From Escherichia coli (GTDB taxonomy: Bacteria > Pseudomonadota > Gammaproteobacteria > Enterobacterales > Enterobacteriaceae), in assembly GCA_026712335.1 (NCBI GenBank), contig GCA_026712335.1_4695.1: DNA of 41,974 bases; one strand, given 5' to 3'. The translations under genes were made by a program, and so were the position numbers. Below, one piece after another: positions 1,021 to 41,974 of the stretch (within the stretch, counting starts at the first letter, position 1; every line of letters begins with the position of its first letter). The notes under the pieces were generated by a model that ran no database searches, was not told where the DNA came from, and saw only the letters and a list, made by a program, of their open reading frames with translations.

Positions 1021-1065
1021 CTCAAGGCCACTACATCTAGTGGTCTTTATGATATTTCAACACAA
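1021..1065 (+). promoter_or_regulatory. Putative RNase III processing hairpin upstream of Rz (second copy ~1227..1271)
   Basis: Hairpin of the T7 R-site type (CTCAAGG...TCTTTATGAT); position equals T7 R18.5. Confidence 0.45.
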
Positions 1066-1448: not shown

Positions 1449-1760
1449 GTTAAGGCGACTGAGGATAAACAGATTGCTATCAATGAAGTCTCACGACAAT
1501 ACCAAGAAGACCTTGCGGCGCTGGAAGGCAGCACTGATAGGGTCATTAATGATTTGCGTAACGATGGTAAGCGCTTGCGCGTCAAACTATCAGCCACCTC
1601 ACGAGAACTCCAAGCTAACGGTGGATGCCTCGTTGATGGTCGAGCCGAACTTGACGAAGAGTTTAGTAAGCGTCTTATCGGAGTAACTCAAAGAGGGGAT
1701 GCGTGGATTAAGGCGCTCCAAAATACAATAACTGAAATGCAATCTAAGAAGGAGAAATAA
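1317..1760 (+). CDS. 18.5: Rz-like spanin (inner-membrane subunit) gp18.5
   Basis: 147 aa; N-terminal TM helix; strong similarity to T7 gp18.5 (KWKQEVHNEYVK...YQEDLAALEGSTDR...GRAELD...GDAWI.ALQ.TI.E.Q); a duplicated start also at 1111. Confidence 0.9.
   Translation: MLKNLKSYAIIAAFALGITLAYNHGYDKANTKWEQEVHNEYVKKVKATEDKQIAINEVSRQYQEDLAALEGSTDRVINDLRNDGKRLRVKLSATSRELQANGGCLVDGRAELDEEFSKRLIGVTQRGDAWIKALQNTITEMQSKKEK
1432..1686 (+). CDS. 18.7: Rz1-like outer-membrane lipoprotein spanin gp18.7, embedded in Rz in the +1 frame
   Basis: Internal ATG of ORF 1357..1686 preceded by GGAGG; MSTLRKLR...WKAALIGSLMICV..SAC lipobox-like; matches T7 gp18.7 (SLMVEPNLT). Confidence 0.85.
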   Translation: MSTLRKLRRLRINRLLSMKSHDNTKKTLRRWKAALIGSLMICVTMVSACASNYQPPHENSKLTVDASLMVEPNLTKSLVSVLSE

Positions 1761-1761
1761 T

Positions 1762-2319
1762 ATGGCTACTACAAACTCAAGAACCCGCACACTATGGACC
1801 ATCAATGGTCGCTCGCCAGACAGTCGTGATGTGTATGACCTCAACAATATTGGTATTCGTGTTGGGCGTATCGACATCCCAGCTTCGGAGATGGTTAAGG
1901 TAGAGGGGTACTCTAAGGTTGAATACGTTGTTCAACTTAGCGATGGCACCACTGAGCAACATGCTACGTTCGAGACCCTTATGTCCACTTGGGGTGGCTC
2001 CGTCGAGTCTAAACCGGGTAGCGGGTTCATGACGGTGTTCCTGAATGAGCAAAGCGCTGAGCGACTCGGTATGGTTCGAATCGACGTATACAAAGAGTGG
2101 ACTGGTGCTGACCCTGAACCTGAAGGTGGTATGGCTTCCTTAGTTGGTGCAACGCTTTCTGCGTCTGATAGTGAATTTGGTACACAGTTCGTGGACAGCG
2201 AAGGGAAGAGCGCTTCCGTTATGTTCCAACCTAGTAACATCGACGGGGCTGTATCTAAGACCGACACTATCAAGGCTCTAGAGAAGCGCATTGCTGCCTT
2301 AGAGAAACCTGCCAAGTAA
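1762..2319 (+). CDS. Hypothetical protein (185 aa) between Rz and large terminase; no counterpart in T7 that I recall
   Basis: Clean ORF with strong RBS AAGGAG 8 nt upstream; TAATATG junction with Rz stop; no recognisable motif. Confidence 0.65.
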   Translation: MATTNSRTRTLWTINGRSPDSRDVYDLNNIGIRVGRIDIPASEMVKVEGYSKVEYVVQLSDGTTEQHATFETLMSTWGGSVESKPGSGFMTVFLNEQSAERLGMVRIDVYKEWTGADPEPEGGMASLVGATLSASDSEFGTQFVDSEGKSASVMFQPSNIDGAVSKTDTIKALEKRIAALEKPAK

Positions 2320-2334
2320 CAATAGGAGGCCACA

Positions 2335-4092
2335 ATGTCTACTCAAGCAAACAAGAATGCGCTCATCGTGGCGCAACTTAAGGGTGACTTCGTGGCCTTC
2401 CTGTTCGTCTTATGGAAGGCTCTGAACTTACCTAAACCAACCAAGTGTCAGATTGATATGGCACGTACACTCGCTAACGGCGACCACAAGAAGTTTATCC
2501 TTCAGGCGTTCCGTGGTATCGGCAAGTCCTTTATCACCTGTGCGTTCGTCGTGTGGGTCTTATGGCGAGACCCTCAACTTAAGGTTCTCATCGTGTCTGC
2601 CTCTAAGGAACGTGCTGATGCTAACTCCATCTTCATCAAGAACATCATCGACCTCCTTCCGTTCCTCTCTGAGTTGAAACCTCGACCGGGACAGCGTGAC
2701 TCCGTGATTAGCTTCGATGTTGGCTTGGCTAAACCCGACCACTCACCCTCTGTGAAGTCTGTAGGTATCACTGGTCAGTTAACTGGTAGCCGTGCTGACA
2801 TCATTATCGCAGATGACGTTGAGGTTCCCGGTAATAGCTCTACGAGTTCTGCTCGTGAGAAGCTCTGGACGTTGGTAACTGAGTTCGCTGCATTACTTAA
2901 GCCGCTGCCTACCTCTCGTGTTATCTACCTTGGCACACCTCAAACTGAGATGACGCTCTACAAGGAACTTGAGGATAACAAAGGGTACAGCACAGTAATC
3001 TGGCCAGCACAGTATCCACGTAATGACGCTGAGGCTCTCTATTATGGCGACCGACTGGCTCCTATGCTCAAGCAAGAGTATGATGAAGGCTATGAGTTAC
3101 TTCGCGGTCAACCTACTGACCCTGTTCGATTCGATATGGATGACCTCCGTGAACGTGAACTCGAATATGGTAAAGCTGGCTACACACTTCAGTTCATGCT
3201 TAACCCGAACCTTAGTGATGCCGAGAAGTACCCGCTACGACTCCGTGATGCTATCGTGTGCGCTGTGGACCCTGAACGTGCCCCATTGTCTTACCAGTGG
3301 TTGCCGAACCGTCAGAACCGCAATGAGGAACTCCCTAACGTTGGTCTGAAGGGTGACGACATCCATGCGTTCCATACGTGCTCTTCTCGTACCGCTGAGT
3401 ATCAGTCTAAGATTCTGGTCATTGACCCAAGTGGTCGTGGTAAGGATGAGACCGGGTACGCAGTCCTCTACTCACTTAATGGTTATATCTACTTGATGGA
3501 AGTCGGTGGGTTCCGTGGTGGTTACGATGATGCTACCCTAGAGAAGCTCGCTAAGAAGGCCAAGCAGTGGAAGGTACAGACAGTAGTCCACGAGTCCAAC
3601 TTCGGTGACGGTATGTTCGGTAAGATTTTCTCTCCGATTCTCCTGAAGCACCATAAGTGTGCCTTAGAGGAAATCCGTGCTAAGGGCATGAAGGAGATGC
3701 GAATCTGCGATACTATCGAACCGTTGATGGGTGCCCACAAGCTGGTCATTCGTGATGAGGTTATCCGTGAGGACTACCAGACTGCTCGTGACCTTGATGG
3801 GAAACATGATGTCCGCTACAGTGCGTTCTATCAGATGACCCGTATGACCCGTGAGCGAGGCGCTGTGGCACACGATGACCGCATTGATGCTATCGCATTG
3901 GGTATCGAGTTCCTTCGTGAAGGGATGCTTGTGGACAGCCGTGTAGGTGAAGAAGAGATGACCCTTGAGTTCCTTGAACACCACATGGAGAAACAGACCA
4001 TTGGTGGTGATGCTATCCATAGCTACGATGTTGGTGGCGTGGACATCTACTATGAGGATGATGGAGACTCTAGCTGCTTCATTGAGTGGTAA
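2335..4092 (+). CDS. 19: Terminase large subunit gp19
   Basis: 585 aa; near-collinear with T7 gp19; Walker A FRGIGKS; RBS AGGAGG. Confidence 0.97.
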
Positions 4093-4179
4093 TAGATAAG
4101 TATGCGGGAAAGGTGCATAGGTAAGCACTTAGTACCGCTACGTTACCGTTAAGTAACTTACTGATATACATGAAGAAAT

Positions 4180-4202
4180 TAATACGACTCACTATTGGGA
4201 AG
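4180..4202 (+). promoter_or_regulatory. Phage RNAP promoter (phiOR-like)
   Basis: TAATACGACTCACTATT GGGAAG; 17/17 to the internal consensus. Confidence 0.8.
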
Positions 4203-4589: not shown

Positions 4590-5060
4590 CAACTCTAAGA
4601 GTAACCCTTATGTACCCTCTATGGTCTACAGGGTCTCTTAGGGTCTCTCACGTAGTCTCACCTTATGATATAGCCTCTGTGGTTAACCTTATGAGACTTG
4701 ATGTACCCCTTTAAGAATCCTACAGAAAAATCTGAGTGAGTATCTCATAGTTCATAAACACCGAGTCCCCCCCCCTATGGCCTCCTTCAGTCCACCCAAA
4801 GAGCCTTCCTCTATGGTAACTCATGGTTTACCTGAAGTCAATCCTTTTGTGAGACATTGGGTTAACTCTAGGTGTAACCACTAGATATTGTGCTTAGTGA
4901 TACCTTATGACCACTATATGTAGTCCTCTCTGTGTCCCTATCTGTAAGTGACCCTAGAGTTATCACCTTATGTCACCTCCTTATGTCTATCCTTATGGCT
5001 GCCTATCCTTATGTTAACCTTCAGTCAGTGCCTTATGTTTATCAGTGACCAATAGGCTTC
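4590..5060. repeat. Terminal-region array of CCTTATG heptamers (at least 8 copies), analogous to the CCTAAAG array at T7 ends
   Basis: Read directly: ACCTTATGA, CACCTTATG, TCCTTATG (x3), GCCTTATG etc.; noncoding; contains a T7 left-end-like motif TCTCATAG at 4743. Confidence 0.7.
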
Positions 5061-5443
5061 GTCACAAAGGGAAATCACTATCTCACTCTGTTTAGCAGTC
5101 CCTGNCCCCCCCCCTATGGCCTCCTTCAGTCCACCCAAAGAGCCTTCCTCTATGGTAACTCATGGTTTACCTGAAGTCAATCCTTTTGTGAGACATTGGG
5201 TTAACTCTAGGTGTAACCACTAGATATGGTGCTTAGTGATACCTTATGACCACTATATGTAGTCCTCTCTGTGTCCCTATCTGTAAGTGACCCTAGAGTT
5301 ATCACCTTATGTCACCTCCTTATGTCTATCCTTATGGCTGCCTATCCTTATGTTAACCTTCAGTCAGTGCCTTATGTTTATCAGTGACCAATAGGCTTCG
5401 TCACAAAGGGAAATCACTATCTCACTCTGTTTAGCAGTCCCTG
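4767..5443. repeat. Direct duplicate 4767..5104 = 5106..5443 with N at 5105, beginning at a C9 homopolymer (scaffold overlap or doubled terminal repeat)
   Basis: Read directly; copies differ by one SNP (T at 4889 vs G at 5228). Confidence 0.85.
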
Positions 5444-5814: not shown

Positions 5815-6267
5815 AACAACTGGTCGCCCTCTGAAACAACATGAGGTGTCACGGTGAGAAACAAAAGTAGTTGACAAGTAGCAACAACAAGATGTAAGAT
5901 GTACGACATAACGTTCTTGTGAAGTCCTACACTGAAAGGGACTCGGTGCTAACAAACCTGCACTTAAAGCTCTTTAACAATTTGGTGACAATAGCACTCT
6001 TGAGATGGCGGCACTAGCGATTAACTCAAGGTGACTCGAANAACAACTGGTCGCCCTCTGAAACAACATGAGGTGTCACGGTGAGAAACAAAAGTAGTTG
6101 ACAAGTAGCAACAACAAGATGTAAGATGTACGACATAACGTTCTTGTGAAGTCCTACACTGAAAGGGACTCGGTGCTAACAAACCTGCACTTAAAGCTCT
6201 TTAACAATTTGGTGACAATAGCACTCTTGAGATGGCGGCACTAGCGATTAACTCAAGGTGACTCGAA
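5815..6267. repeat. Direct duplicate 5815..6040 = 6042..6267 with N at 6041 (scaffold overlap)
   Basis: Read directly; duplicates the A3-like promoter. Confidence 0.9.
5871..5900 (+). promoter_or_regulatory. Putative host sigma70 early promoter (A3-like; duplicate copy at 6098..6127)
   Basis: -35 TTGACA, 18-nt spacer, -10 TAAGAT. Confidence 0.65.
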
Positions 6268-8491: not shown

Positions 8492-11354
8492 ATGACTAAC
8501 GTAATCAACGCACCAAAGAACGACTTCTCTGACATCGCTAACGCAATCATGCCATACAACATTCTGGCTGACCATTACGGCGCACAGCTTGCAGCTACGC
8601 AGTTACAGCTTGAGCACGAAGCGCACACCGAAGGCGAGAAGCGTTTTCTTAAGGCAATGGAACGTCAAATCAAAGCGGGTGAGTTCGGTGATAACGCAGT
8701 GGCTAAACCGCTCCTGTCATCTCTCGCACCGAAGTTTATCGAGGCGTGGAACGATTGGTTCACTGAAGTGGAAGCGAAGCGTGGCAAGCGTCCAGTAGCC
8801 TACAATCTGGTACAGAAGGTTGCACCTGAAGCTGCTGCATTTATCACACTGAAGGTCACACTCGCTTGCTTGACGAAAGAAGAGTTCACCAACCTGCAAT
8901 CGGTCGCCACTAAGATTGGTCGCAGTATTGAGGATGAACTGCGTTTTGGTCGCATCCGTGACGAAGAAGCGAAGCACTTTAAGAACCACGTACAGGAGGC
9001 ACTGAACAAGCGCGTTGGTATCGTCTACAAGAAAGCATTCATGCAAGCTGTAGAAGGCAAGATGCTTGATGCTGGTCAACTGCAAACCAAGTGGACCACA
9101 TGGACACCTGAAGAATCAATTCACGTTGGTGTGCGCATGTTGGAACTGCTCATTGGGTCTACTGGTCTCGTTGAGTTACACCGCCCGTTCGCTGGGAACA
9201 TCGAGAAGGATGGCGAGTACATCCAACTGACCGAACAATACGTTGACCTGTTATCTAAACGTGCTGGTGCACTGGCTGCAATCGCTCCAATGTATCAGCC
9301 TTGCGTGGTCCCACCTAAGCCTTGGACTTCTCCGGTCGGTGGTGGCTATTGGGCTGCTGGTCGCAAGCCTCTCTCTCTGGTTCGCACTGGTAGCAAGAAG
9401 GGACTTGAGCGTTACAACGATGTGTACATGCCTGAAGTTTACAAGGCCGTGAACATCGCACAGAATACTCCTTGGAAGATTAACAAGAAGGTTCTGGCAG
9501 TGGTCAACGAGATTGTGAACTGGAAGCATTGCCCGGTTGAAGATGTACCCGCTCTGGAACGTGGAGAACTCCCGGTCAAACCTGATGACATCGACACGAA
9601 CGAAGCGGCTCTGAAAGCGTGGAAGAAAGCGGCCTCCGCAATCTACCGCAAAGAGAAGGCACGAGTGTCACGCCGCATGAGCATGGAGTTCATGTTAGGT
9701 CAGGCCAATAAGTTCGCACAGTTCAAAGCTATCTGGTTCCCAATGAACATGGACTGGCGCGGTCGTGTGTATGNGAGAACTCCCGGTCAAACCTGATGAC
9801 ATCGACACGAACGAAGCGGCTCTGAAAGCGTGGAAGAAAGCGGCCTCCGCAATCTACCGCAAAGAGAAGGCACGAGTGTCACGCCGCATGAGCATGGAGT
9901 TCATGTTAGGTCAGGCCAATAAGTTCGCACAGTTCAAAGCTATCTGGTTCCCAATGAACATGGACTGGCGCGGTCGTGTGTATGCTGTGCCGATGTTTAA
10001 CCCGCAAGGCAACGACATGACCAAAGGCTTGCTGACGTTGGCTAAAGGTAAACCAATCGGTGTCGATGGGTACTACTGGCTGAAGATTCACGGTGCTAAC
10101 ACTGCTGGCGTGGACAAGGTGGACTTTGCAGAACGCATCAAGTTCATTGATGACAACCATGAGAACATCATGAGCGTTGCGGCTGACCCGATTGCTAACA
10201 CTTGGTGGGCCGAGCAAGATTCTCCGTTCTGCTTCCTCGCGTTCTGCTTCGAGTATGCAGGTGTGCAACACCACGGGATGAACTACAACTGCTCTCTTCC
10301 GCTGGCGTTCGATGGTAGCTGCTCCGGTATTCAGCACTTCTCCGCGATGCTCCGTGATGAGATTGGTGGTCGTGCGGTTAACCTGCTGCCAAGCAAAGAG
10401 GTACAAGACATCTACCGCATCGTAGCGGAACGTGTCAACGAGATTCTGAAGCAAGATGTAATAAATGGCACCGACAACGAAGTCGAAACCGTGACCAATA
10501 AGGACACAGGGGAAATCACTGAGAAGCTCAAGCTGGGCACGAAGGAACTGGCTGGTCAATGGTTAGCATACGGTGTTACTCGTAAGGAGACTAAGCGTTC
10601 CGTTATGACCTTGGCGTATGGTTCCAAAGAGTATGGCTTCCGTGACCAAGTGCTAGAGGATACAATTCAGCCAGCTATCGACGATGGCAAGGGCTTGATG
10701 TTCACTCAACCGAACCAAGCGGCTGGCTACATGGCTAAACTGATTTGGAACGCGGTAACGGTGACAGTGGTCGCTGCGGTTGAAGCAATGAACTGGCTGA
10801 AGTCTGCTGCTAAACTGCTGGCTGCTGAAGTCAAGGACAAGAAGACAAAAGAGGTTCTGCGCAAACGCTGTGCGGTACATTGGGTTACTCCTGATGGCTT
10901 CCCGGTCTGGCAGGAATACAAGAAGCCAGTACAGACACGCTTGAACCTGATGTTCTTAGGCCAGATTCGTCTACAGCCTACCGTGAACACCAACAAGGAT
11001 AGCGGAATTGATGCTCGTAAGCAGGAGTCAGGCATCGCACCTAACTTTGTCCACTCAATGGATGGTAGCCACCTGCGCATGACTGTGGTCCGCTCCAATG
11101 AGGTCTACGGTGTGGAATCGTTCGCACTGATTCACGACTCCTTTGGTACTATCCCTGCTGATGCTGGCAACCTGTTTAAAGCAGTGCGTGAAACGATGGT
11201 CAACACTTACGAAGAGAACGATGTACTTGCAGACTTCTATGAGCAATTTGCTGACCAGTTGCACGAATCACAGCTTGACAAGATGCCTGAGATGCCAGCT
11301 AAAGGTTCTCTGGACCTGCAAGAAATCCTTAAGTCAGACTTTGCGTTTGCCTAA
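8492..11354 (+). CDS. 1: Single-subunit DNA-dependent RNA polymerase gp1 (ORF split by duplication artifact 9564..9984; true length about 883 aa)
   Basis: ORFs 8492..9796 and 9765..11354 together are collinear with T7/T3 RNAP (PCVVPPKPW, WFPMNMDWRGRVYAV, ALIHDSFGT, C-terminal SDFAFA); removing one 211-bp copy restores frame. Confidence 0.97.
9564..9984. repeat. Direct duplicate 9564..9773 = 9775..9984 with N at 9774 inside the RNAP gene (scaffold overlap artifact)
   Basis: Read directly; copies identical; period 211 is not a multiple of 3. Confidence 0.92.
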
Positions 11355-35133: not shown

Positions 35134-38100
35134 GTGGATAAGTATAACCCGAACGAATCGCATGAATATGATGCGTTATTTCAACAAGCTGCTGACACAC
35201 ATGGAGTCTCCTATGGCCTTCTTCGGAAGGTCGGTTGGGTAGAGTCCCGCTTTAAACCTACGGCTCAATCACCAACAGGGCCACGAGGTGTCATGCAGTT
35301 CACTAAGGCAACTGGTCAGGCTTATGGTCTCCAGAACGATGAGGACTTCGCTGACCCGGCTAAGTCCATTGATGCTGGTGCTCGTTACCTTGCAGACCTC
35401 GTTAAGAAATACAATGGGGATGAACTTAAAGCTGCCCTAGCGTACAACCAAGGTGAAGGGAGCAACGGTAAGCCACAACTGGAAGCCTACGATTCTGGTA
35501 ACTTTGCTGGCATCGGTGATGAAGGTCGTAACTATCTGCGTTCACTTCTGGATGTCGCTAAGTCACCTAAGAGTGGGGACATCGAGTCATTCGGTGGTAT
35601 CACCCCAAAGGGTAAAGGGATTCCGTTTGATGCTGCGATGAGTGGTATCGGGAAGAAAGGAAAGGTAACAACTGAACTCCCTGAGTCTCACGAAATGTCC
35701 TTTCAAGGTAAAGAACAGGCCGCTCCCAATCAGCCGTTCGGAAAAGATTATTGGGAAGCCAAAGGTACAACTCTTGACGAAGCAAACGAGCGTTCAACCT
35801 TCTTCGGATTCGGTAGTGCTGCTGAAGCAGAACTCTCAAACTCAACCTTGGGTGTTGCCTTCCGTGCTGGTAAGCGTGACAATGGTTTTGATGTGCTCAC
35901 TGATGTACTTCAACCGACACGGTTTAACAGCCACATTTGGTCGCCTGAAGAACTCGATAAGATTCGCAAAGAAGTGAAGAACCCTGCGTACATGAACGTT
36001 GTGCTTGGTGGTTCCGCTGAGAACCTTGACGAGCTAATCAAGATGGCTAATGAGAACTTCGAGTTGGACTCTAAGGCTGCTGATGCGGGTCTAGGTGCCA
36101 AGCTGTCTGCTGGTCTTATTGGTGCTGGTGTTGACCCGTTGACCTACGTTCCTATCGCTGGGACTGCGGCTAAAGGGTTCAAGCTGGTTAACAAGGCGTT
36201 GATTGTAGGTGCTCAAGCTGGTGCACTTAACGTTGCCTCTGAAGGTCTGCGTACATCGGTTGCTGGTGGTGATGCACATTATGCTGAAGCTGCCCTTGCT
36301 GGGATGTTACTGGCTGGTGGACTGACTTCTGTGGCAGATGGCGTTGCTGCGGGTCTCCGTAAGTCTGGTGCTGAACAGATTGAGAACCCCTTTGCTGCTG
36401 CACAGATGCGCTTTGAGACTCGTGAGACTGCACGTAACACTGGTGGTTATGACGCAAGCCGTATGCCTCCTAGTGAAGACCGAGTGTTCTCACAGCACAA
36501 CGGCGTTGAGTATGCACCACTGGAAACTGAACCGGGTGCTGTAGTGTTGCGTGATGGTTCCATTATCAGTGACACAAACTTGGCTAACCCGATGACAGCC
36601 AAAGAGTTCGAAGAAGTAGACCCTGAACGTGCTGCGTGGGGCTTGCCTATGCGTGGATTGAGTGAAATCGGCTTGAGGACTTTACGTTCTGAACATGCTG
36701 AAATCCGTGGTCTCGCTAAGGACTTAGTGCGTTCACCTACAGGTATGGAGTCAGGCTCACATGGTAAGTTTGGTTCCACTACATCGGACATCATAGAGCG
36801 ACTGCGCAGTCTCAATCATCGAACCTACAATAACCTATATGGTGCAATGAAGGAAGCGATGGCTGACCCTGAGTGGTCTGTTGGTATGTTCAAGAGTGGT
36901 GCTCAAGGTGCCCGTCAACAAATCTATCGTCGTACTAGTGAGGCTATCGAGAGACCTGAACTTCAGGCCAACTTGACCAAGGCAGAACGTAAGGTGATGG
37001 ACATCGTGAAGGAACACTATGACCTCAAGCGTGAGATGATGGAGAACCCGTCGATGTTCGGTAACAAGGCCACCTCTATCTTCCCTAACAGTCGTCACAA
37101 AGGGACTTACGTTCCTCATGTGTACTCACGGGAAGCCAAGCAGTTGTACTCACAGGCTCTTGGGGGCACTGATGGTTTACAGGAAGCAGTTGCTGCAAGC
37201 CTGATGGCATCATATCATGCACGCCCTGAAGTTAAGGCCCGTATTGATGAGATGCTGGCAGAGCAGTTACGGGTATCCAAACCAGCGGGTAAGACTGCGG
37301 GTACTACACCCAATAAGCCCTCTTCTGTCAACACAGCAAGTTACCAGATGAAACTGGACGATACAGCTACACAGGCAAGTGATAAGGTATTGGAACTAAA
37401 AGACGTCATGACCAACGCTGAGAAGCGAGTTGCGGACCGTGAAAGGAAACTCCAGAACTCCAAGGACAGACTGGCTTCGCATGAGGCTAAACTGAAGGAG
37501 TTGGAAGAAAAACTAGCTGCTAAACCTAATAGCAAAACCATTCCTGTTAAGATTGAGAGCCGGAAGCAGATGATTGAGACCCAGAAGTCTCACATCCGTA
37601 TTAACACAGAGCGTCTCGACTACATGAAAGGACAGGCTGCTAAGGTCCAAGACAGAATCACCAAAGCAACCGCCGAAGCTGAGGAAGCCGCCTCTGCTGC
37701 CAAAGGGCAGAAGACTACTGGTGGCGGTGAAGACACTATCGTTGGTGAAGCCACATCGGGTAATGCACCTCAATCAGTACAAGAGGTGACTATGGATATG
37801 GTCGAGAAGTACGCTATGGACAAGGCTTACGGTATTACGAAGACCGATGAGTTCAACTCTTCAAGTGTCATTGACGATAACATTGAGGGTCTCGTTGGGA
37901 TTGAGAACAACTCATTCCTTGAAGCCCGTAACCTGTTTGATTCTGACGTGCCAATCACTCTACCGAACGGGCAACAGTTCTCTGTGAATGACCTCCGTGA
38001 CTTCGATATGAAGCATGTGATGCCAGCATATGACCGCCGTGTTGATGGTGATATTGCTATCATGGGAGGCACAGGTAAGACTACTGCTGAACTCAAGGAC

Positions 38101-39782
38101 GCTATTATGGCTCTTGATAAGAAGTCTGAAGGTAAAGGTACAATGAAAGGTGAAGTGGAAGCACTTAAGGATGTCGTTAAGATTGNGTGAATGACCTCCG
38201 TGACTTCGATATGAAGCATGTGATGCCAGCATATGACCGCCGTGTTGATGGTGATATTGCTATCATGGGAGGCACAGGTAAGACTACTGCTGAACTCAAG
38301 GACGCTATTATGGCTCTTGATAAGAAGTCTGAAGGTAAAGGTACAATGAAAGGTGAAGTGGAAGCACTTAAGGATGTCGTTAAGATTGTCACTGGTCGTG
38401 CTCGACGCAATCAGGATACTGTAGGTGACACTATGGTCCGTGCTCTGTCCGATATGTCCTTCTTCACGAAGAACGCATATATGGGCTTGCAGAACCTAAC
38501 CGAAATCTCCGGTATGTTGCAGAAGGGTAATATCCGTGCGATGCTTCATGGCATTCCGGTACTGCGTGACTTAGCGTTCCGCAACAAGCCAGTCTCTGGT
38601 AGTGAACTCAAAGAACTCCACTCTATGGTGTTCGGTAAAGAGTTTGATGACTTAGTCCGACCTACTCGTCAAGACATCATTCAGCGACTCCGTGAGTCCA
38701 CTGATACACCTGATGTTGCCGCAAAGGTTGTTGGTTCTATCAAGCACACAACTCAAGAACTGGCGGCTCGCTCACCTCTCACCAAGTTCCTCAATGGTAC
38801 GTCAAACTACCTTCTGGACATGGCCCGACAGGGTGTGATGGGTGATGTGGTAACTCATGCTATCACTGGAAAGGGTGCCAACAAGTGGATTAAAGGTGAC
38901 ATGTTGAAGTCTGCGAGTATCTCTAAGGAACAGTGGGAAGGCATTCAGGCTCTCATCCGTGAGAACGTTACCCGTGGGGAAGATGGTAAGTTTACCTTCA
39001 AGGATAAGAAGGCTCTGGCTAATGACCCTCGTGCTATGGACTTGTGGCGTTTGGCTGACAAGGTTGCTGATGAAACGATGCTTCGACCTCATAAGGTTTC
39101 CTTACAGGATTCCCATGCGTTTGGTGCCACCGCTAAGTTAGTCCTTCAGTTTAAGTCGTTTGTCATCAAGTCGATGAACTCTAAGTTTATCCGCTCCGGT
39201 CACGAAGCCTTTAAGAACCAGCGTGCTATGGACATGGCGCTGACCTATGCAATCTCTGGTGGTATCGCTGGCTCCTACTATGTGGCACAGGCCCACTTGA
39301 AGGCTGCTGGTCTTCCTAAAGAGCAACAGAAGGATTACTTGAAGAAAGCTCTCGACCCGAAGATGATTGCCTACGCTGCGGCCTCCCGAAGTTCACACTT
39401 AGGGTCGCCTCTGAGTATCGCTAACTTCGCTATGGGTGCTGCTGGTTACGACCAAGGTCTTATGGTTCGCTCTACGATTCTACCGAAAGGTGATGACAAG
39501 CGTGAGCGCAACAAGGCGGTGACTTCTCGTGACATGGGTGATTCCATTATGGGCGCTATTGGTGAACAGGTTCCTGCTCTTGGCTTCGCTGGTGCTGCTC
39601 TAGCTACTGGTCGAAATGCTTATGGTGTCCTTACGGCTCCTAACAAACCGACCGAGCGTGAGATGATGACTGGCTTAATGAATGCTCACCGAGAGATGAT
39701 TCCTAACGATCCAATCTCTCAACAGATGCTCATTAAGTTCTATGAGGCCAACGGTGTTCACATTAAGGCTGACAAGAAGTAA
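35134..39782 (+). CDS. 16: Internal virion protein D gp16 with N-terminal lytic transglycosylase domain (ORF split by duplication artifact 37984..38388; about 1481 aa after de-duplication; GTG start)
   Basis: ORFs 35134..38190 and 38187..39782 together are collinear with T7 gp16; SLT motifs ESRF...MQFTKAT...AYNQGEG; C-terminus YEANGV; removing one 203-bp copy restores frame. Confidence 0.95.
37984..38388. repeat. Direct duplicate 37984..38185 = 38187..38388 with N at 38186 inside gp16 (scaffold overlap artifact)
   Basis: Read directly; copies identical; period 203 is not a multiple of 3. Confidence 0.92.
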
Positions 39783-39783
39783 A

Positions 39784-39806
39784 CAATACGACTCACTATT
39801 GGGAAG
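39784..39806 (+). promoter_or_regulatory. Phage RNAP promoter (phi17-like, late)
   Basis: CAATACGACTCACTATT GGGAAG. Confidence 0.8.
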
Positions 39807-39854: not shown

Positions 39855-41780
39855 ATGGCTAACAAAATTTCCACTGTACGTACTTACCCGCTGAACGGTG
39901 CCGTGAACTTCACGATTACCTTTGAGTATTTAGCACGTAAGTTCGTCCAAGTGACACTCATCGGGAAAGACCGTAAAGAGTTGGTTCTCAATCAGGACTA
40001 TCGCTTTACCACTAAGACCCAAATCACAACCTCCCGTGCGTGGACTGCTGCCGATGGTTATCAGATGATTGAGATTCGTCGATTCACTTCTGCAACCGAC
40101 CGTCTGGTTGACTTTGCTGATGGCTCAATCCTTCGTGCGTATGACCTTAACATCTCACAGATTCAGACGCTGCACGTAGCTGAAGAGGCACGAGACCTAA
40201 CTGCGGATACCATTGGTGTCAACAATGATGGTCACTTGGATGCCCGTGGTCGTAAGATTGTGAACCTAGCGTTCGCTACCAGTGACTACGATGCTGTCCC
40301 TCTGAAGCAAGTAAAAGAGCGCGAGTCGTCTGCTTGGAACGCTGTTAACAAGGCCAATGAACACGCTAACCGCTCTAACACTGAGGCTAACCGATCGCGA
40401 GATGAAGCTGACCGTGCAAAACGTGAAGCTGACCGCTCAACCCAACAGGCAGGTGTCTCTACGGCACAGGCGGTTGAGTCCAAGAAGCAAGCTGACCGTT
40501 CCAACTCTGAGGCTAACCGAGCTAAAGGTTATGCTGATAGTATGACCGCAAGTGTAGCTGAGGCCAAGAAGCAAGCTGACCGTTCTAACTCTGAGGCCAA
40601 TCGTGCCCGTGATGAGGCCAATCGTGCTGCCGGAGAAGTGACTAAGGCTGCTGCTGAGGTTGCCAAAGCCGCTGCACACGTTGCTACCGCTGATGGACAT
40701 GCTGACAGAGCCAACACTGAGGCAAACCGCTCCAAGAGTGAAGCTGACCGTGCAAAGACCGAGGCTGACAAGTTAGGGAATATGAATAACTTAGCGGGAA
40801 CCATTAAAGCGGTTAATGGTGAGAACGTTGTTTTTAAGAATGATGTTGTAGCACCCGGACAGATTACTGGTGAAAAGGAAGTAAGGGCTGGCGCAGGTCA
40901 ATCGTTTAGCGTGTTAACAAGGAACTCGTTGCAGCTTGTGAACCAGAACTTCGCTGATAGAAATATGAGGTTCTTCGTATGGGGGAATGACCAAGGACGT
41001 GCAAACGTATTTGAGTTAGGTGGTAGCGGTAATGGGTACTATATGTATATCCAGAAGGCTAACCTTAACGACACATTTTGCCAGATGCGAGTGAATGGAC
41101 ATATGGAGGCTGCTGGTGGGCTTACGGTTGGACAATCAGGTGACTTCACTGGAATCTTACAGACTCGCTCACAGAACCTGCTGATGATTAACTCTGCTCG
41201 TCGACATATTCAAATGAAAACCAGCGATAACTACACCGATGGTTATCTTTACAAAGACCCCGGCGCTGGGGCGTGGAGGCTTAACTTTGGTCAGGCAGCT
41301 AACAGGGAGTATACGTTTGATTCAAATGGTACATTAACATCCAACTCAGGCTGGTACATTCCACCAGATGGTAACTTATACATCACGAAGTATGATTCTT
41401 ACATCGACGGTTGGGTCAACAAACGCCTTGGAGAACATGCCTACAATAAAAGCGAAGTAAACAACCTAGTCAATGGACGGTTAACTCAAGCGCAAGCTGA
41501 TGGTCGATACGTCAATAAGAATGCTGGGTGGGCTGAGGTCTGGAAAGGCTCTGCTGGTGGTGGTGTCTCGGTAGGTCTCTCACAGGATGTTCGTTGGAGA
41601 ACCATCTGGATTCAGACCAATGGTCGCTGGAACGCCGTTCCTATTGGTGACAATGCGGCTTACTTCATCTCGTCTGCTGGTGGTTGGTTGAAGTTCACAA
41701 TCTCCAACAACGGCAGAACTTTCCGTAACGACAAAGACGACCGTTCAGTCCCTACGCGAATCTTAGTTCAAAACCAATAA
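39855..41780 (+). CDS. 17: Tail fiber protein gp17 (641 aa, with expanded central repeat region)
   Basis: N-terminal domain FEYLARKFV.VTLIG.DRK...DGSILRAYDLN..QIQT.HVAEEARDLT.DTIGVNNDGHLDARGR.IVNLA and C-terminal tip match T7 gp17. Confidence 0.96.
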   Translation: MANKISTVRTYPLNGAVNFTITFEYLARKFVQVTLIGKDRKELVLNQDYRFTTKTQITTSRAWTAADGYQMIEIRRFTSATDRLVDFADGSILRAYDLNISQIQTLHVAEEARDLTADTIGVNNDGHLDARGRKIVNLAFATSDYDAVPLKQVKERESSAWNAVNKANEHANRSNTEANRSRDEADRAKREADRSTQQAGVSTAQAVESKKQADRSNSEANRAKGYADSMTASVAEAKKQADRSNSEANRARDEANRAAGEVTKAAAEVAKAAAHVATADGHADRANTEANRSKSEADRAKTEADKLGNMNNLAGTIKAVNGENVVFKNDVVAPGQITGEKEVRAGAGQSFSVLTRNSLQLVNQNFADRNMRFFVWGNDQGRANVFELGGSGNGYYMYIQKANLNDTFCQMRVNGHMEAAGGLTVGQSGDFTGILQTRSQNLLMINSARRHIQMKTSDNYTDGYLYKDPGAGAWRLNFGQAANREYTFDSNGTLTSNSGWYIPPDGNLYITKYDSYIDGWVNKRLGEHAYNKSEVNNLVNGRLTQAQADGRYVNKNAGWAEVWKGSAGGGVSVGLSQDVRWRTIWIQTNGRWNAVPIGDNAAYFISSAGGWLKFTISNNGRTFRNDKDDRSVPTRILVQNQ

Positions 41781-41826
41781 GGACAACATATAGACCACGG
41801 ATGGTCTCAACAATAAGGAGGACACA

Positions 41827-41974
41827 ATGTTGTCTTTAGATTTTAACAACGAGGTAGTGAAGGCTGCACCGATTGTAGGGACAGGCGTAGCCGATGGTGC
41901 TGCCCGTCTGTTCTTCGGCCTGTCACTCAACGAGTGGTTCTATGTAGCCGCAATTGCCTACACAGTGGCTCAAA
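41827..41974 (+). CDS. 17.5: Holin gp17.5, 5' fragment (wrap-around copy of 544..691)
   Basis: Identical to the start of ORF 544..750; window ends inside the gene. Confidence 0.85.
   Translation, partial: MLSLDFNNEVVKAAPIVGTGVADGAARLFFGLSLNEWFYVAAIAYTVAQ

What the first reader, a model, noticed from the sequence alone, without database searches (positions are those of the whole stretch)
1762..2319. Extra 185-aa ORF inserted between the lysis cassette (Rz/Rz1) and the large terminase
In T7 the large terminase gene follows Rz within about 20 bp. Here a 558-bp ORF with a strong RBS (AAGGAG, 8-nt spacing) sits in that slot. Its start overlaps the Rz stop (TAATATG) and it ends 15 bp before the terminase RBS, so it reads as a translationally coupled insertion. 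The protein has no TM segment, no nuclease or kinase motif I can recognise, and a C-terminal amphipathic stretch (TDTIKALEKRIAALEKPAK). It is the best candidate in the window for an uncharacterised accessory function.
Basis: partly seen in the sequence, partly recalled or inferred. Interest (0 to 1): 0.65.

Follow-up and report, generated by a model that had tools for sequence, protein, structure and literature searches.

The report
Accessory gene 18.9 of T7-like phage
The ORF is a real, dispensable late gene that some T7-like phages carry between the spanin and terminase genes; its function is unknown, but its build (constant head, swappable tail-fibre-like ends) suggests a small add-on fibre on the virus particle.

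Summary
The 185-aa ORF at 1762-2319 (+) exists as described, apart from two small errors. It is a real gene under purifying selection (dN/dS about 0.1). The window is a circularly permuted Berlinvirus (BA14/285P/PZJ0206 group) genome. The ORF is 100% identical to a 'hypothetical protein' of Enterobacter phage PZJ0206 and belongs to PHROG 20446. The family is tiny: 20 representatives among 1.84 billion proteins. Every member sits between Rz and the large terminase. It is accessory: Berlinvirus A7 lacks it, and phage Carena carries an in-frame 110-codon deletion. The family has a conserved ~120-aa N-terminal beta domain, an ADPEPE hinge and freely exchanged distal modules, mostly ending in a short C-terminal coiled coil. 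Wherever the distal modules of relatives match anything annotated, it is tail fibre proteins. A remotely related gene ('gp18.9' of Erwinia phage L1; Ningirsuvirus) fills the same slot. No known domain, fold or solved structure matches the N-domain convincingly, and no paper gives a function. Best guess (confidence 0.4): a non-essential, virion-attached mini-fibre or decoration protein. The virion link is inferred, not shown. The gene is already catalogued as a sequence but uncharacterised; interest is moderate.

The parts
39784..39804 (+). Phage RNA-polymerase promoter upstream of gene 17 (phi17). It is the nearest phage promoter upstream of the ORF, which places the ORF in a late transcript.
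   Evidence: 12 T7-type promoter matches were found against 0 expected by chance. This one has 1 mismatch. No other lies between it and the ORF across the circular junction. Gene 17 is at 39855-41780.
1024..1047 (+). Hairpin followed by a T-rich tail, between gene 18 (small terminase) and Rz. It may be a partial terminator or RNA-processing site within the late transcript.
   Evidence: A terminator is annotated at the same position in phage ETEP21B.
1317..1760 (+). Gene 18.5 (Rz, i-spanin). The embedded gene 18.7 (Rz1, o-spanin) lies at 1432-1686 in another frame.
   Evidence: BA14 annotation, coordinate offset 1196. The copy at 1111-1242 belongs to an assembly duplication.
1748..1753 (+). Shine-Dalgarno sequence AAGGAG inside the last codons of Rz. 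It serves the ORF; in ORF-less relatives the same element serves TerL.
1762..2319 (+). The ORF ('gene 18.9'-type accessory gene): 185 aa, 20 kDa, pI 4.8.
   Evidence: PHROG 20446, E 6e-127; 100% identical to the PZJ0206 protein; dN/dS about 0.1.
1762..2124 (+). Conserved N-terminal domain (aa 1-121), predicted as about 8 beta strands plus one helix. It ends in the hinge A116-DPEPE-121 (nt 2107-2124).
   Evidence: Alignments place nearly all invariant residues here. AlphaFold2 pLDDT is about 80-90. This is the part shared by PHROG 20446 and PHROG 27102.
2125..2259 (+). Variable distal module, type A (aa 122-166). It is short, Ser/Gly-rich, predicted to contain strands, and modelled with low confidence.
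   Evidence: at least 5 module types across relatives; pLDDT below 50.
2260..2307 (+). C-terminal short coiled-coil segment (aa 167-182, TDTIKALEKRIAALEK). It is conserved in module types A, B and D.
   Evidence: (helix 167-181).
2324..2329 (+). RBS (AGGAGG) of the large terminase, in the 15-nt spacer that travels with the cassette.
2335..4092 (+). Gene 19, large terminase (585 aa).
4180..4200 (+). phiOR phage promoter downstream of gene 19.
   Evidence: (0 mismatches) and the BA14 annotation.

Best explanation
The ORF is a 'gene 18.9'-type late accessory gene of T7-like phages. It is transcribed from the phi17 late promoter together with the tail fibre, holin, small terminase, spanin and large terminase genes. 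It is translated from the Shine-Dalgarno sequence embedded in the end of Rz. The product is a soluble, acidic 20-kDa protein with four parts: a conserved ~120-aa beta-rich N-terminal domain, an acidic proline hinge (ADPEPE), a short variable segment and a 2-3-heptad C-terminal coiled coil. I propose that it is a non-essential, virion-attached mini-fibre or decoration protein. In this model the constant N-domain docks on a conserved surface of the particle (capsid or tail), the coiled coil oligomerises it, and the exchangeable distal part projects outward. The projecting part would modulate adsorption, host range or adhesion. In the window phage the distal part is the minimal 'type A' version. 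Shown here: the gene is real, it lies in the late operon, the family is modular, the distal modules of relatives are homologous to tail fibres, and the gene is dispensable. Inferred only: presence in the virion, the docking role of the N-domain, oligomerisation, and any role in adsorption.
Confidence: 0.4

Rival explanations
1. It is a non-structural soluble late protein that acts at or after lysis. It would be released with the progeny and bind envelope components or debris. Possible roles are masking receptors so that new virions are not wasted, functionally like T5 Llp, or assisting the spanin step.
For: The ORF is always immediately downstream of Rz/Rz1 and tightly packed with it. The weak fold resemblance is to carbohydrate-binding modules. 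Variable distal modules resembling receptor-binding parts of fibres would also suit a soluble receptor binder. The gene is dispensable.
Against: There is no signal peptide, lipobox or TM segment, so it cannot reach the envelope before lysis. Tight gene packing is the rule throughout T7-like genomes and is weak evidence for a functional link. No similarity to any lysis protein family was found.
Confidence: 0.17
2. It is an assembly helper that is not retained, or only partly retained, in the particle. Examples would be a chaperone or adaptor for tail-fibre attachment, or an accessory factor of the packaging motor encoded next to it.
For: It is co-transcribed with gene 17 and sits directly upstream of TerL. 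Tail-fibre-related modules occur in relatives. Fibre assembly proteins and fibritin-type whiskers are likewise non-essential or conditionally essential.
Against: The N-domain is kept in phages with quite different gp17 distal parts: a tailspike with Tail_spike_N in L005, and different gp17 C-termini in pEa_SNUABM_57 and YpEc11. The distal module varies among phages whose gp17 has the same length and near-identical ends. This is the opposite of the co-variation expected for a fibre chaperone. Close relatives assemble and package without the gene.
Confidence: 0.13
3. It is a counter-defence or decoy protein aimed at host systems that sense late phage proteins such as terminase, portal or capsid. 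Diversifying selection would explain the module swapping.
For: The gene shows a presence/absence pattern and rapid turnover of part of the protein, as many anti-defence genes do. It is an ORFan-like, narrow family located next to TerL.
Against: It is expressed late and is not among the early or middle genes where the T7-group counter-defence genes known to me lie. The distal modules are homologous to structural tail-fibre parts. Nothing else points this way; the PADLOC search found nothing, but that library covers defence systems, not anti-defence proteins.
Confidence: 0.1
4. It is a non-functional remnant or a spurious ORF.
For: It is absent from some close relatives and internally deleted in one.
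Against: dN/dS is about 0.1. A strong RBS is conserved. The reading frame is intact in the relatives read here except the in-frame Carena deletion, and the gene matches in 58 phage records. The N-domain is conserved down to about 35-40% identity in metagenomic relatives at the same locus.
Confidence: 0.02

Closest known systems
PHROG 20446 / PHROG 27102 (uncharacterised proteins of Berlinvirus and Helsettvirus; e.g. BA14 ACF15774.1, 285P LXB_046, Yep-phi CDS00042, PZJ0206_3)
   Same: The window protein matches PHROG 20446 over its full length (E 6e-127) and matches PHROG 27102 through its N-domain (E 1e-46). It is 100% identical to the PZJ0206 protein. Members occupy the same Rz-TerL slot.
   Different: Nothing differs; this is the family the ORF belongs to. 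The family has no known function.
gp18.9 of Erwinia phage vB_EamP-L1 and its relatives (PHROG 5004; Ningirsuvirus Sibilus and JA10, Pantoea phage Bubbas, pEp_SNUABM_09)
   Same: These genes occupy the same slot between Rz and TerL and have a similar size, 204-226 aa. The N-domains are remotely related: hhalign gives E 1.8e-4 and probability 48% over 100 co-linear columns, and Foldseek gives E 2.3e-5 to the Sibilus protein. A metagenomic chimera, P0026, joins the Berlinvirus-type N-domain to the PHROG 5004 C-terminus. The distal part of L1 gp18.9 hits a tail-fibre PHROG.
   Different: The N-domain similarity is near the detection limit. The C-terminal module (..KVNE.I..LN.VR..) is unrelated to the window's ALEKRIAALEK coil. 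The function of this group is also unknown.
Non-essential virion add-on fibres and decoration proteins (T4 fibritin, phi29 gp8.5 head fibre, T5 pb10, T4 Hoc, PhiM1 alpha-paw)
   Same: The proposed mode of action is the same: a constant anchoring domain, a projecting variable or adhesive part, sometimes a terminal oligomerisation element (the fibritin foldon), and dispensability for plaque formation. The general properties come from the decoration-protein literature cited in PMC11440229 and from my own knowledge.
   Different: No sequence or convincing fold similarity to any of them was found. Virion association is not shown. The window protein is much shorter than fibritin.
T7 gp17 tail fibre
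   Different: The ORF lacks the Phage_T7_tail attachment domain. It shows no profile similarity to the phage's own gp17. It is about a third of the size.

Membership tests
PHROG 20446 / 'gene 18.9-type' accessory proteins of T7-like phages | Significant full-length sequence match to the family profile | tested here: met
   E 6.3e-127 over residues 1-185 of a 185-position profile. Identity to named phage proteins is 91-100%.
PHROG 20446 / 'gene 18.9-type' accessory proteins of T7-like phages | Location between Rz/Rz1 and the large terminase, on the same strand and closely packed | tested here: met
   Window, 14 phage records and three distant metagenomic members.
T7-type tail fibre (gp17 family) | N-terminal tail-attachment domain (Pfam PF03906, Phage_T7_tail) | tested here: not met
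   No Pfam hit at E up to 1. hhalign against the window's own gp17 gives probability 0.5%.
T7-type tail fibre (gp17 family) | Fibre shaft and/or distal receptor-binding domain | tested here: inconclusive
T7-type tail fibre (gp17 family) | Presence in the virion as a trimer | not testable with these tools
   This needs virion proteomics or cryo-EM. No multimer prediction was available.
Capsid decoration proteins (Hoc, Soc, gpD, Dec, pb10, gp8.5, alpha-claw) | Sequence or fold membership in a described decoration family | tested here: not met
Capsid decoration proteins (Hoc, Soc, gpD, Dec, pb10, gp8.5, alpha-claw) | Dispensable for particle formation and plaque growth | tested here: met
   Natural absence in Berlinvirus A7 and an in-frame deletion of aa 43-152 in the isolated phage Carena. 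This is inferred from natural variants, not from an engineered knockout.
Capsid decoration proteins (Hoc, Soc, gpD, Dec, pb10, gp8.5, alpha-claw) | Bound to the capsid surface | not testable with these tools
   No proteome or structure of an ORF-bearing phage could be read.
Lysis proteins (holin, antiholin, spanin, endolysin) | TM segment, signal peptide or lipobox, or a muralytic domain | tested here: not met
   The maximum KD19 is 0.49 and the protein has no Cys, hence no lipobox. No lysis family appears in Pfam or PHROGs.
Homing endonuclease / mobile cassette | HNH, GIY-YIG, LAGLIDADG or similar nuclease domain | tested here: not met
   No Pfam or NCBIfam hit. HNH genes of relatives lie elsewhere, downstream of TerL.
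Known defence-system components (PADLOC) | Match to a defence-system protein model | tested here: not met
   No hits for the window protein or four relatives.

The most novel reading that the evidence does not exclude
Gene 18.9-type proteins (PHROGs 20446, 27102 and 5004) are an unrecognised class of exchangeable surface appendages of T7-like virions. A new beta-sandwich anchor domain would carry modules drawn from the tail-fibre gene pool. This would give these otherwise single-fibre podophages a second, rapidly swappable contact with the host surface or the environment.
Probability: 0.35. Interest if true: 0.55.

Novelty: new variant of a known kind. Interest (0 to 1): 0.4.

Why it matters
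T7-like phages are the best-understood podophages and a main chassis for engineered and therapeutic phages. Their particle composition and host-recognition apparatus are usually treated as complete: gp17, plus the tail proteins. A dispensable, naturally module-swapping extra virion protein would be a second handle on host range or adhesion. It would also be a ready-made display and engineering site at a locus that tolerates insertion, deletion and exchange. If the protein is instead non-structural, it is still one of the few late-expressed accessory genes of this group with no assigned role. It also differs among otherwise closely similar diagnostic Yersinia pestis phages (Yep-phi, Yepe2, vB_YpP_T3, Altay-2017), whose host ranges are reported to differ.

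Tried and rejected
- **Family libraries.** Pfam, NCBIfam and PADLOC scans of the ORF and of relatives gave nothing usable.
- **Solved structures.** A profile search of PDB sequences found only designed coiled-coil peptides at E 0.4 or above.
- **Other fold libraries.** afdb50 was not available.
- **Homologue search with the knob module alone.** It returned nothing, although the parent protein is in the database. I treat this as a failure of the word index. tblastn against phage genomes replaced it.
- **Repeated match to a bacterial adhesin.** The family profile matched the Big_13 repeats of a 1695-aa adhesin with a summed E of 1.7e-6. Every single repeat scores below 8 bits. I rejected it as evidence of homology.
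- **Paralogy within the window.** phmmer against all six-frame ORFs of the window found none. hhalign against the phage's own gp17 found no relation.
- **Fibre-chaperone idea.** The distal module does not co-vary with gp17, which weakens it.
- **Literature.** Eight full-text searches and several papers yielded no functional statement on this gene. The one Berlinvirus particle proteome I could read is from a phage that lacks the gene. Three papers are not held: Yep-phi proteomics, Erwinia phage L1 and vB_PagP-SK1.
- **Minus-strand ORF.** The 133-aa ORF at 1932-2333 (-) was disregarded, because the substitution pattern fits the + frame.

Full report
**Observation.**
The window carries an ATG-initiated ORF at 1762-2319 (+) encoding 185 aa. 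AAGGAG lies at 1748-1753, 8 nt upstream of the ATG. Rz (gene 18.5, 1317-1760) ends with TAA at 1758-1760, so the ATG follows the stop after one base rather than overlapping it. The embedded Rz1 lies at 1432-1686. The ORF's TAA (2317-2319) lies 15 nt before the terminase ATG (2335), and the terminase RBS AGGAGG (2324-2329) sits inside that spacer. The product is acidic (pI 4.8), 20 kDa, without Cys and without any hydrophobic stretch; the maximum Kyte-Doolittle 19-aa window is 0.49.

**What the window is.**
The region is 96-98% identical in DNA to Berlinvirus genomes: Enterobacter phage PZJ0206, and Escherichia phages nasanit, S523, 285P and BA14. The protein is 100% identical to PZJ0206_3. An exact look-up shows that the same protein sits on a 41,974-bp contig of an E. 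coli assembly, which is this window. The window is a circularly permuted phage genome.
- Its ends overlap: 341-640 equals 41624-41923.
- It contains six single N (340, 1243, 5105, 6041, 9774, 38186). Five sit at the joint of a perfect 202-339-nt tandem duplication; the N at 340 sits at the joint of a 226-nt-offset repeat that is not identical. I read these as assembly artefacts.
- None touches the ORF. One (1038-1448) duplicates the 5' end of Rz.
- Twelve T7-type promoters are present against 0 expected by chance.
- The nearest promoter upstream of the ORF is phi17 at 39784, in front of gene 17 (39855-41780). The next downstream is phiOR at 4180.

The ORF therefore lies in the late transcript gene 17 - 17.5 - 18 - 18.5/18.7 - ORF - 19.

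**It is a real gene.**
Among eight co-linear orthologues, Nei-Gojobori dN/dS is 0.08-0.15 for the divergent pairs. Against ETEP21B, for example, dN is 0.040 and dS 0.423. The N-terminal two thirds are more constrained than the distal third.

**Distribution and synteny.**
- tblastn finds the gene in 58 of 50,697 phage records. All those examined are Berlinvirus, plus one Helsettvirus, YpEc11.
- A word-indexed search of 5.8 billion proteins found 15 clusters.
- An exhaustive profile search of 1.84 billion representatives found only 20 proteins.
- In every genome or contig examined, including the three most distant metagenomic members, the order is Rz - ORF - TerL with minimal spacing.
- One of these contigs has a quite different tailspike (Tail_spike_N).

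The gene is accessory. Berlinvirus A7 (Shigella phage vB_ShiP-A7) lacks it. There the Rz stop overlaps the TerL start (TAATG), and the Shine-Dalgarno sequence inside the end of Rz serves TerL. In the window the same sequence serves the ORF, and TerL has its own RBS in the 15-nt spacer. The cassette is thus 'ORF plus spacer with RBS'. Phage Carena, an isolated and viable phage, carries an in-frame deletion of aa 43-152. T7 itself has nothing in this slot: Rz ends at 37348, and gene 19 starts about 20 nt later (from memory).

**Architecture.**
Alignments show three parts.
- A strongly conserved N-terminal domain of about 120 aa holds nearly all the invariant residues: G16, R17, D20-S21-R22, R36, D38-I39, G49-Y50, K52-VEY55, S83, G86-S87, I107-DV109, K111-E112.
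- An acidic proline hinge follows (A/D-D-P-E-P-E).
- Everything after the hinge is exchanged between relatives.

At least five distal types occur.
- Type A (window, BA14 group) is 64 aa and ends in ..TIKALEKRIAALEKPAK.
- Type D (Altay-2017, YpEc11) is a divergent relative of A.
- Type B (vB_YpP_T3, PYps50T, pEa_SNUABM_57) is a roughly 100-aa knob-like module followed by a longer coiled coil.
- Type C (Yepe2, Yep-phi, Berlin) is a Trp-rich module ending in ..LKALQDALGIT...
- P0010 carries a repeat-rich, helical module.

Three Y. pestis phages with gp17 of the same 569-aa length and near-identical ends carry types D, C and B respectively. The modules therefore move independently of the main fibre.

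**What the distal modules are.**
- The knob module hits phrog_6578, a tail fibre family. By tblastn its only matches outside the family that fall on annotated features are annotated tail fibre proteins (one is a 'hypothetical protein'; several records carry no annotation): Xanthomonas phage RTH11 at 4e-8, Salmonella phage SP01 at 5e-4, and rV5-like phages.
- The P0010 module hits T7-type tail-fibre PHROGs in the shaft region immediately after the attachment domain: phrog_4242 positions 140-245 at E 5.5e-9, and three further tail-fibre PHROGs.
- The window's own type A module has no such hit. Its only match is a marginal one (E 0.011) to a small 'head-tail connector' PHROG.

**Structure.**
AlphaFold2 was run with the 16-sequence family alignment. 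It models the N-domain with pLDDT of about 80-90 as roughly eight strands and one helix. The distal part has pLDDT below 50 except for the terminal helix. This holds for the window protein and for the 256-aa Yersinia version.
- Phage receptor-binding and tail-fibre domains and carbohydrate-binding modules are prominent among the top hits, although Y-family DNA-polymerase little-finger domains score equally well: the phi812 baseplate CBM protein, the T7 gp17 tip, the R2 pyocin fibre, the phi11 RBP and CBM6/35/36.
- I take this as a theme, not an assignment.
- Foldseek against BFVD finds the family itself and, beyond it, uncharacterised proteins of Klebsiella phage Sibilus (E 2.3e-5) and Dickeya phage Dagda.

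**A wider 'gene 18.9' group.**
Following the Sibilus lead, the same Rz-TerL slot holds a 204-226-aa gene in five further phages: Erwinia phage vB_EamP-L1 (annotated gp18.9), Ningirsuvirus Sibilus and JA10, Pantoea phage Bubbas and pEp_SNUABM_09. These belong to PHROG 5004.
- Their N-domains align co-linearly with the Berlinvirus family at the limit of detection: hhalign E 1.8e-4, probability 48%.
- A metagenomic protein, P0026, is a natural chimera of the Berlinvirus-type N-domain and the PHROG 5004 C-terminus.
- The distal part of L1 gp18.9 again hits a tail-fibre PHROG (phrog_23820, 6.6e-5).

Together with the conserved position, I consider a common origin likely but not proven.

**Literature.**
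No paper in the held library assigns a function, and 'gp18.9' occurs in none. The one Berlinvirus particle proteome I could read (vB_ShiP-A7, PMC8427288) is uninformative because that phage lacks the gene. The Yep-phi proteomics paper, the L1 paper and the SK1 paper are not held. PhiM1 (PMC11440229) shows that Autographiviridae can carry capsid decoration proteins with fibrous arms, but those are alpha-helical and unrelated.

**Interpretation.**
The best-supported reading is a dispensable, late-made, cytoplasmic protein built like a phage appendage. It has a constant domain, a hinge, a distal part exchanged with the tail-fibre module pool, and a short terminal coiled coil that could oligomerise it. 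I therefore propose a virion-attached mini-fibre or decoration protein that modulates adsorption, host range or adhesion (confidence 0.4). The virion association, the anchoring role of the N-domain and the oligomeric state are all inferences. The polarity could even be reversed, with a CBM-like N-domain as the binding head.

Rivals:
- a soluble late protein acting at or after lysis, for example receptor masking (0.17);
- an assembly helper for the fibre or packaging motor (0.13), weakened by the lack of co-variation with gp17;
- a late-acting counter-defence or decoy protein (0.10);
- a non-functional remnant (0.02), contradicted by dN/dS.

**Novelty and score.**
The sequence is not new. It is annotated as hypothetical in dozens of genomes and catalogued as a PHROG. 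What this analysis adds is fourfold:
- the family is modular, with tail-fibre-type distal parts;
- it is naturally dispensable;
- its N-domain has no recognisable relative;
- a remotely related gene occupies the same slot in other Studiervirinae genera.

If the virion-appendage reading is right, this is a new variant of a known kind of system (phage accessory fibres and decoration proteins). A specialist would find it worth a proteomics or cryo-EM check but not very surprising. Interest is 0.4.

Noticed in passing
window 340, 1243, 5105, 6041, 9774, 38186; repeats 1038-1448, 4767-5405, 5815-6267, 9564-9984, 37984-38388; 341-640 = 41624-41923: Six single N are present. Five sit at the joint of a perfect 202-339-nt tandem duplication; the N at 340 sits at the joint of a 226-nt-offset repeat that is only 80% identical over 300 nt. 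The two ends of the window also overlap. These look like unmerged read or contig overlaps of a circularised assembly of a linear phage genome, not biology. They create false partial copies of the gene 17 end, holin start, Rz start and other genes.
   Followed up: partly
whole window: The window is a contig of an E. coli genome assembly (protein MCY4689411.1, 'hypothetical protein LI081_22310 [Escherichia coli]', longest contig 41,974). It is in fact a complete lytic Berlinvirus genome closest to Enterobacter phage PZJ0206. It is a phage contaminating or infecting the sequenced culture, not a prophage.
   Followed up: partly
L032 2039-2719; L033 1475-2092; L034 2201-2818; L035/L036 1183-1797: A different, remotely related gene family (PHROG 5004, 'gp18.9' of Erwinia phage L1) occupies the same Rz-TerL slot in Elunavirus, Ningirsuvirus and unclassified Erwinia and Pantoea phages. 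A metagenomic protein (P0026, loci L007-L009) is a chimera of the two families.
   Followed up: yes
L004 1435-2091 (Yep-phi), L012 4435-5076 (Altay-2017), L020 4570-5058 (ETEP21B): Start codons of the orthologues appear mis-annotated. In Yep-phi and Altay-2017 the start is about 20 codons too far upstream, inside Rz. In ETEP21B it is 23 codons too far downstream, with a note of 'two transmembrane domains' that the hydropathy of the protein does not support.
   Followed up: partly
window 4093-4179 versus L012 6880-7338, L020 6864-7307, L021 6913-7359: Several relatives (Altay-2017, ETEP21B, Yepe2) carry an HNH homing endonuclease (gp7.7-like) gene directly downstream of the large terminase. The window has none there. 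This is a second presence/absence polymorphism flanking gene 19.
   Followed up: no
L010 8001-13088 (P0028): A 1695-aa bacterial Big_13-repeat adhesin, encoded next to a type I secretion system, matched the family profile through seven repeats. Each repeat scores below 8 bits, and the match spans the last strands of the N-domain, the DPEPE hinge and the start of the distal part. This is probably a chance pattern match or a hint of an Ig-like element.
   Followed up: partly
window 1024-1047: A 10-bp-stem hairpin with a T-rich tail lies between the small terminase gene and Rz. It is annotated as a terminator in phage ETEP21B. It would lower transcription of Rz, the ORF and TerL relative to gene 17.
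   Followed up: no
L003 1013-1240 (phage Carena): The in-frame deletion in Carena joins ..RIDIPAS to VMFQPS... In the full-length sequence, 'AS' precedes both junction points (IPAS / SAS). This suggests deletion by slippage or recombination at a short repeat.
   Followed up: no
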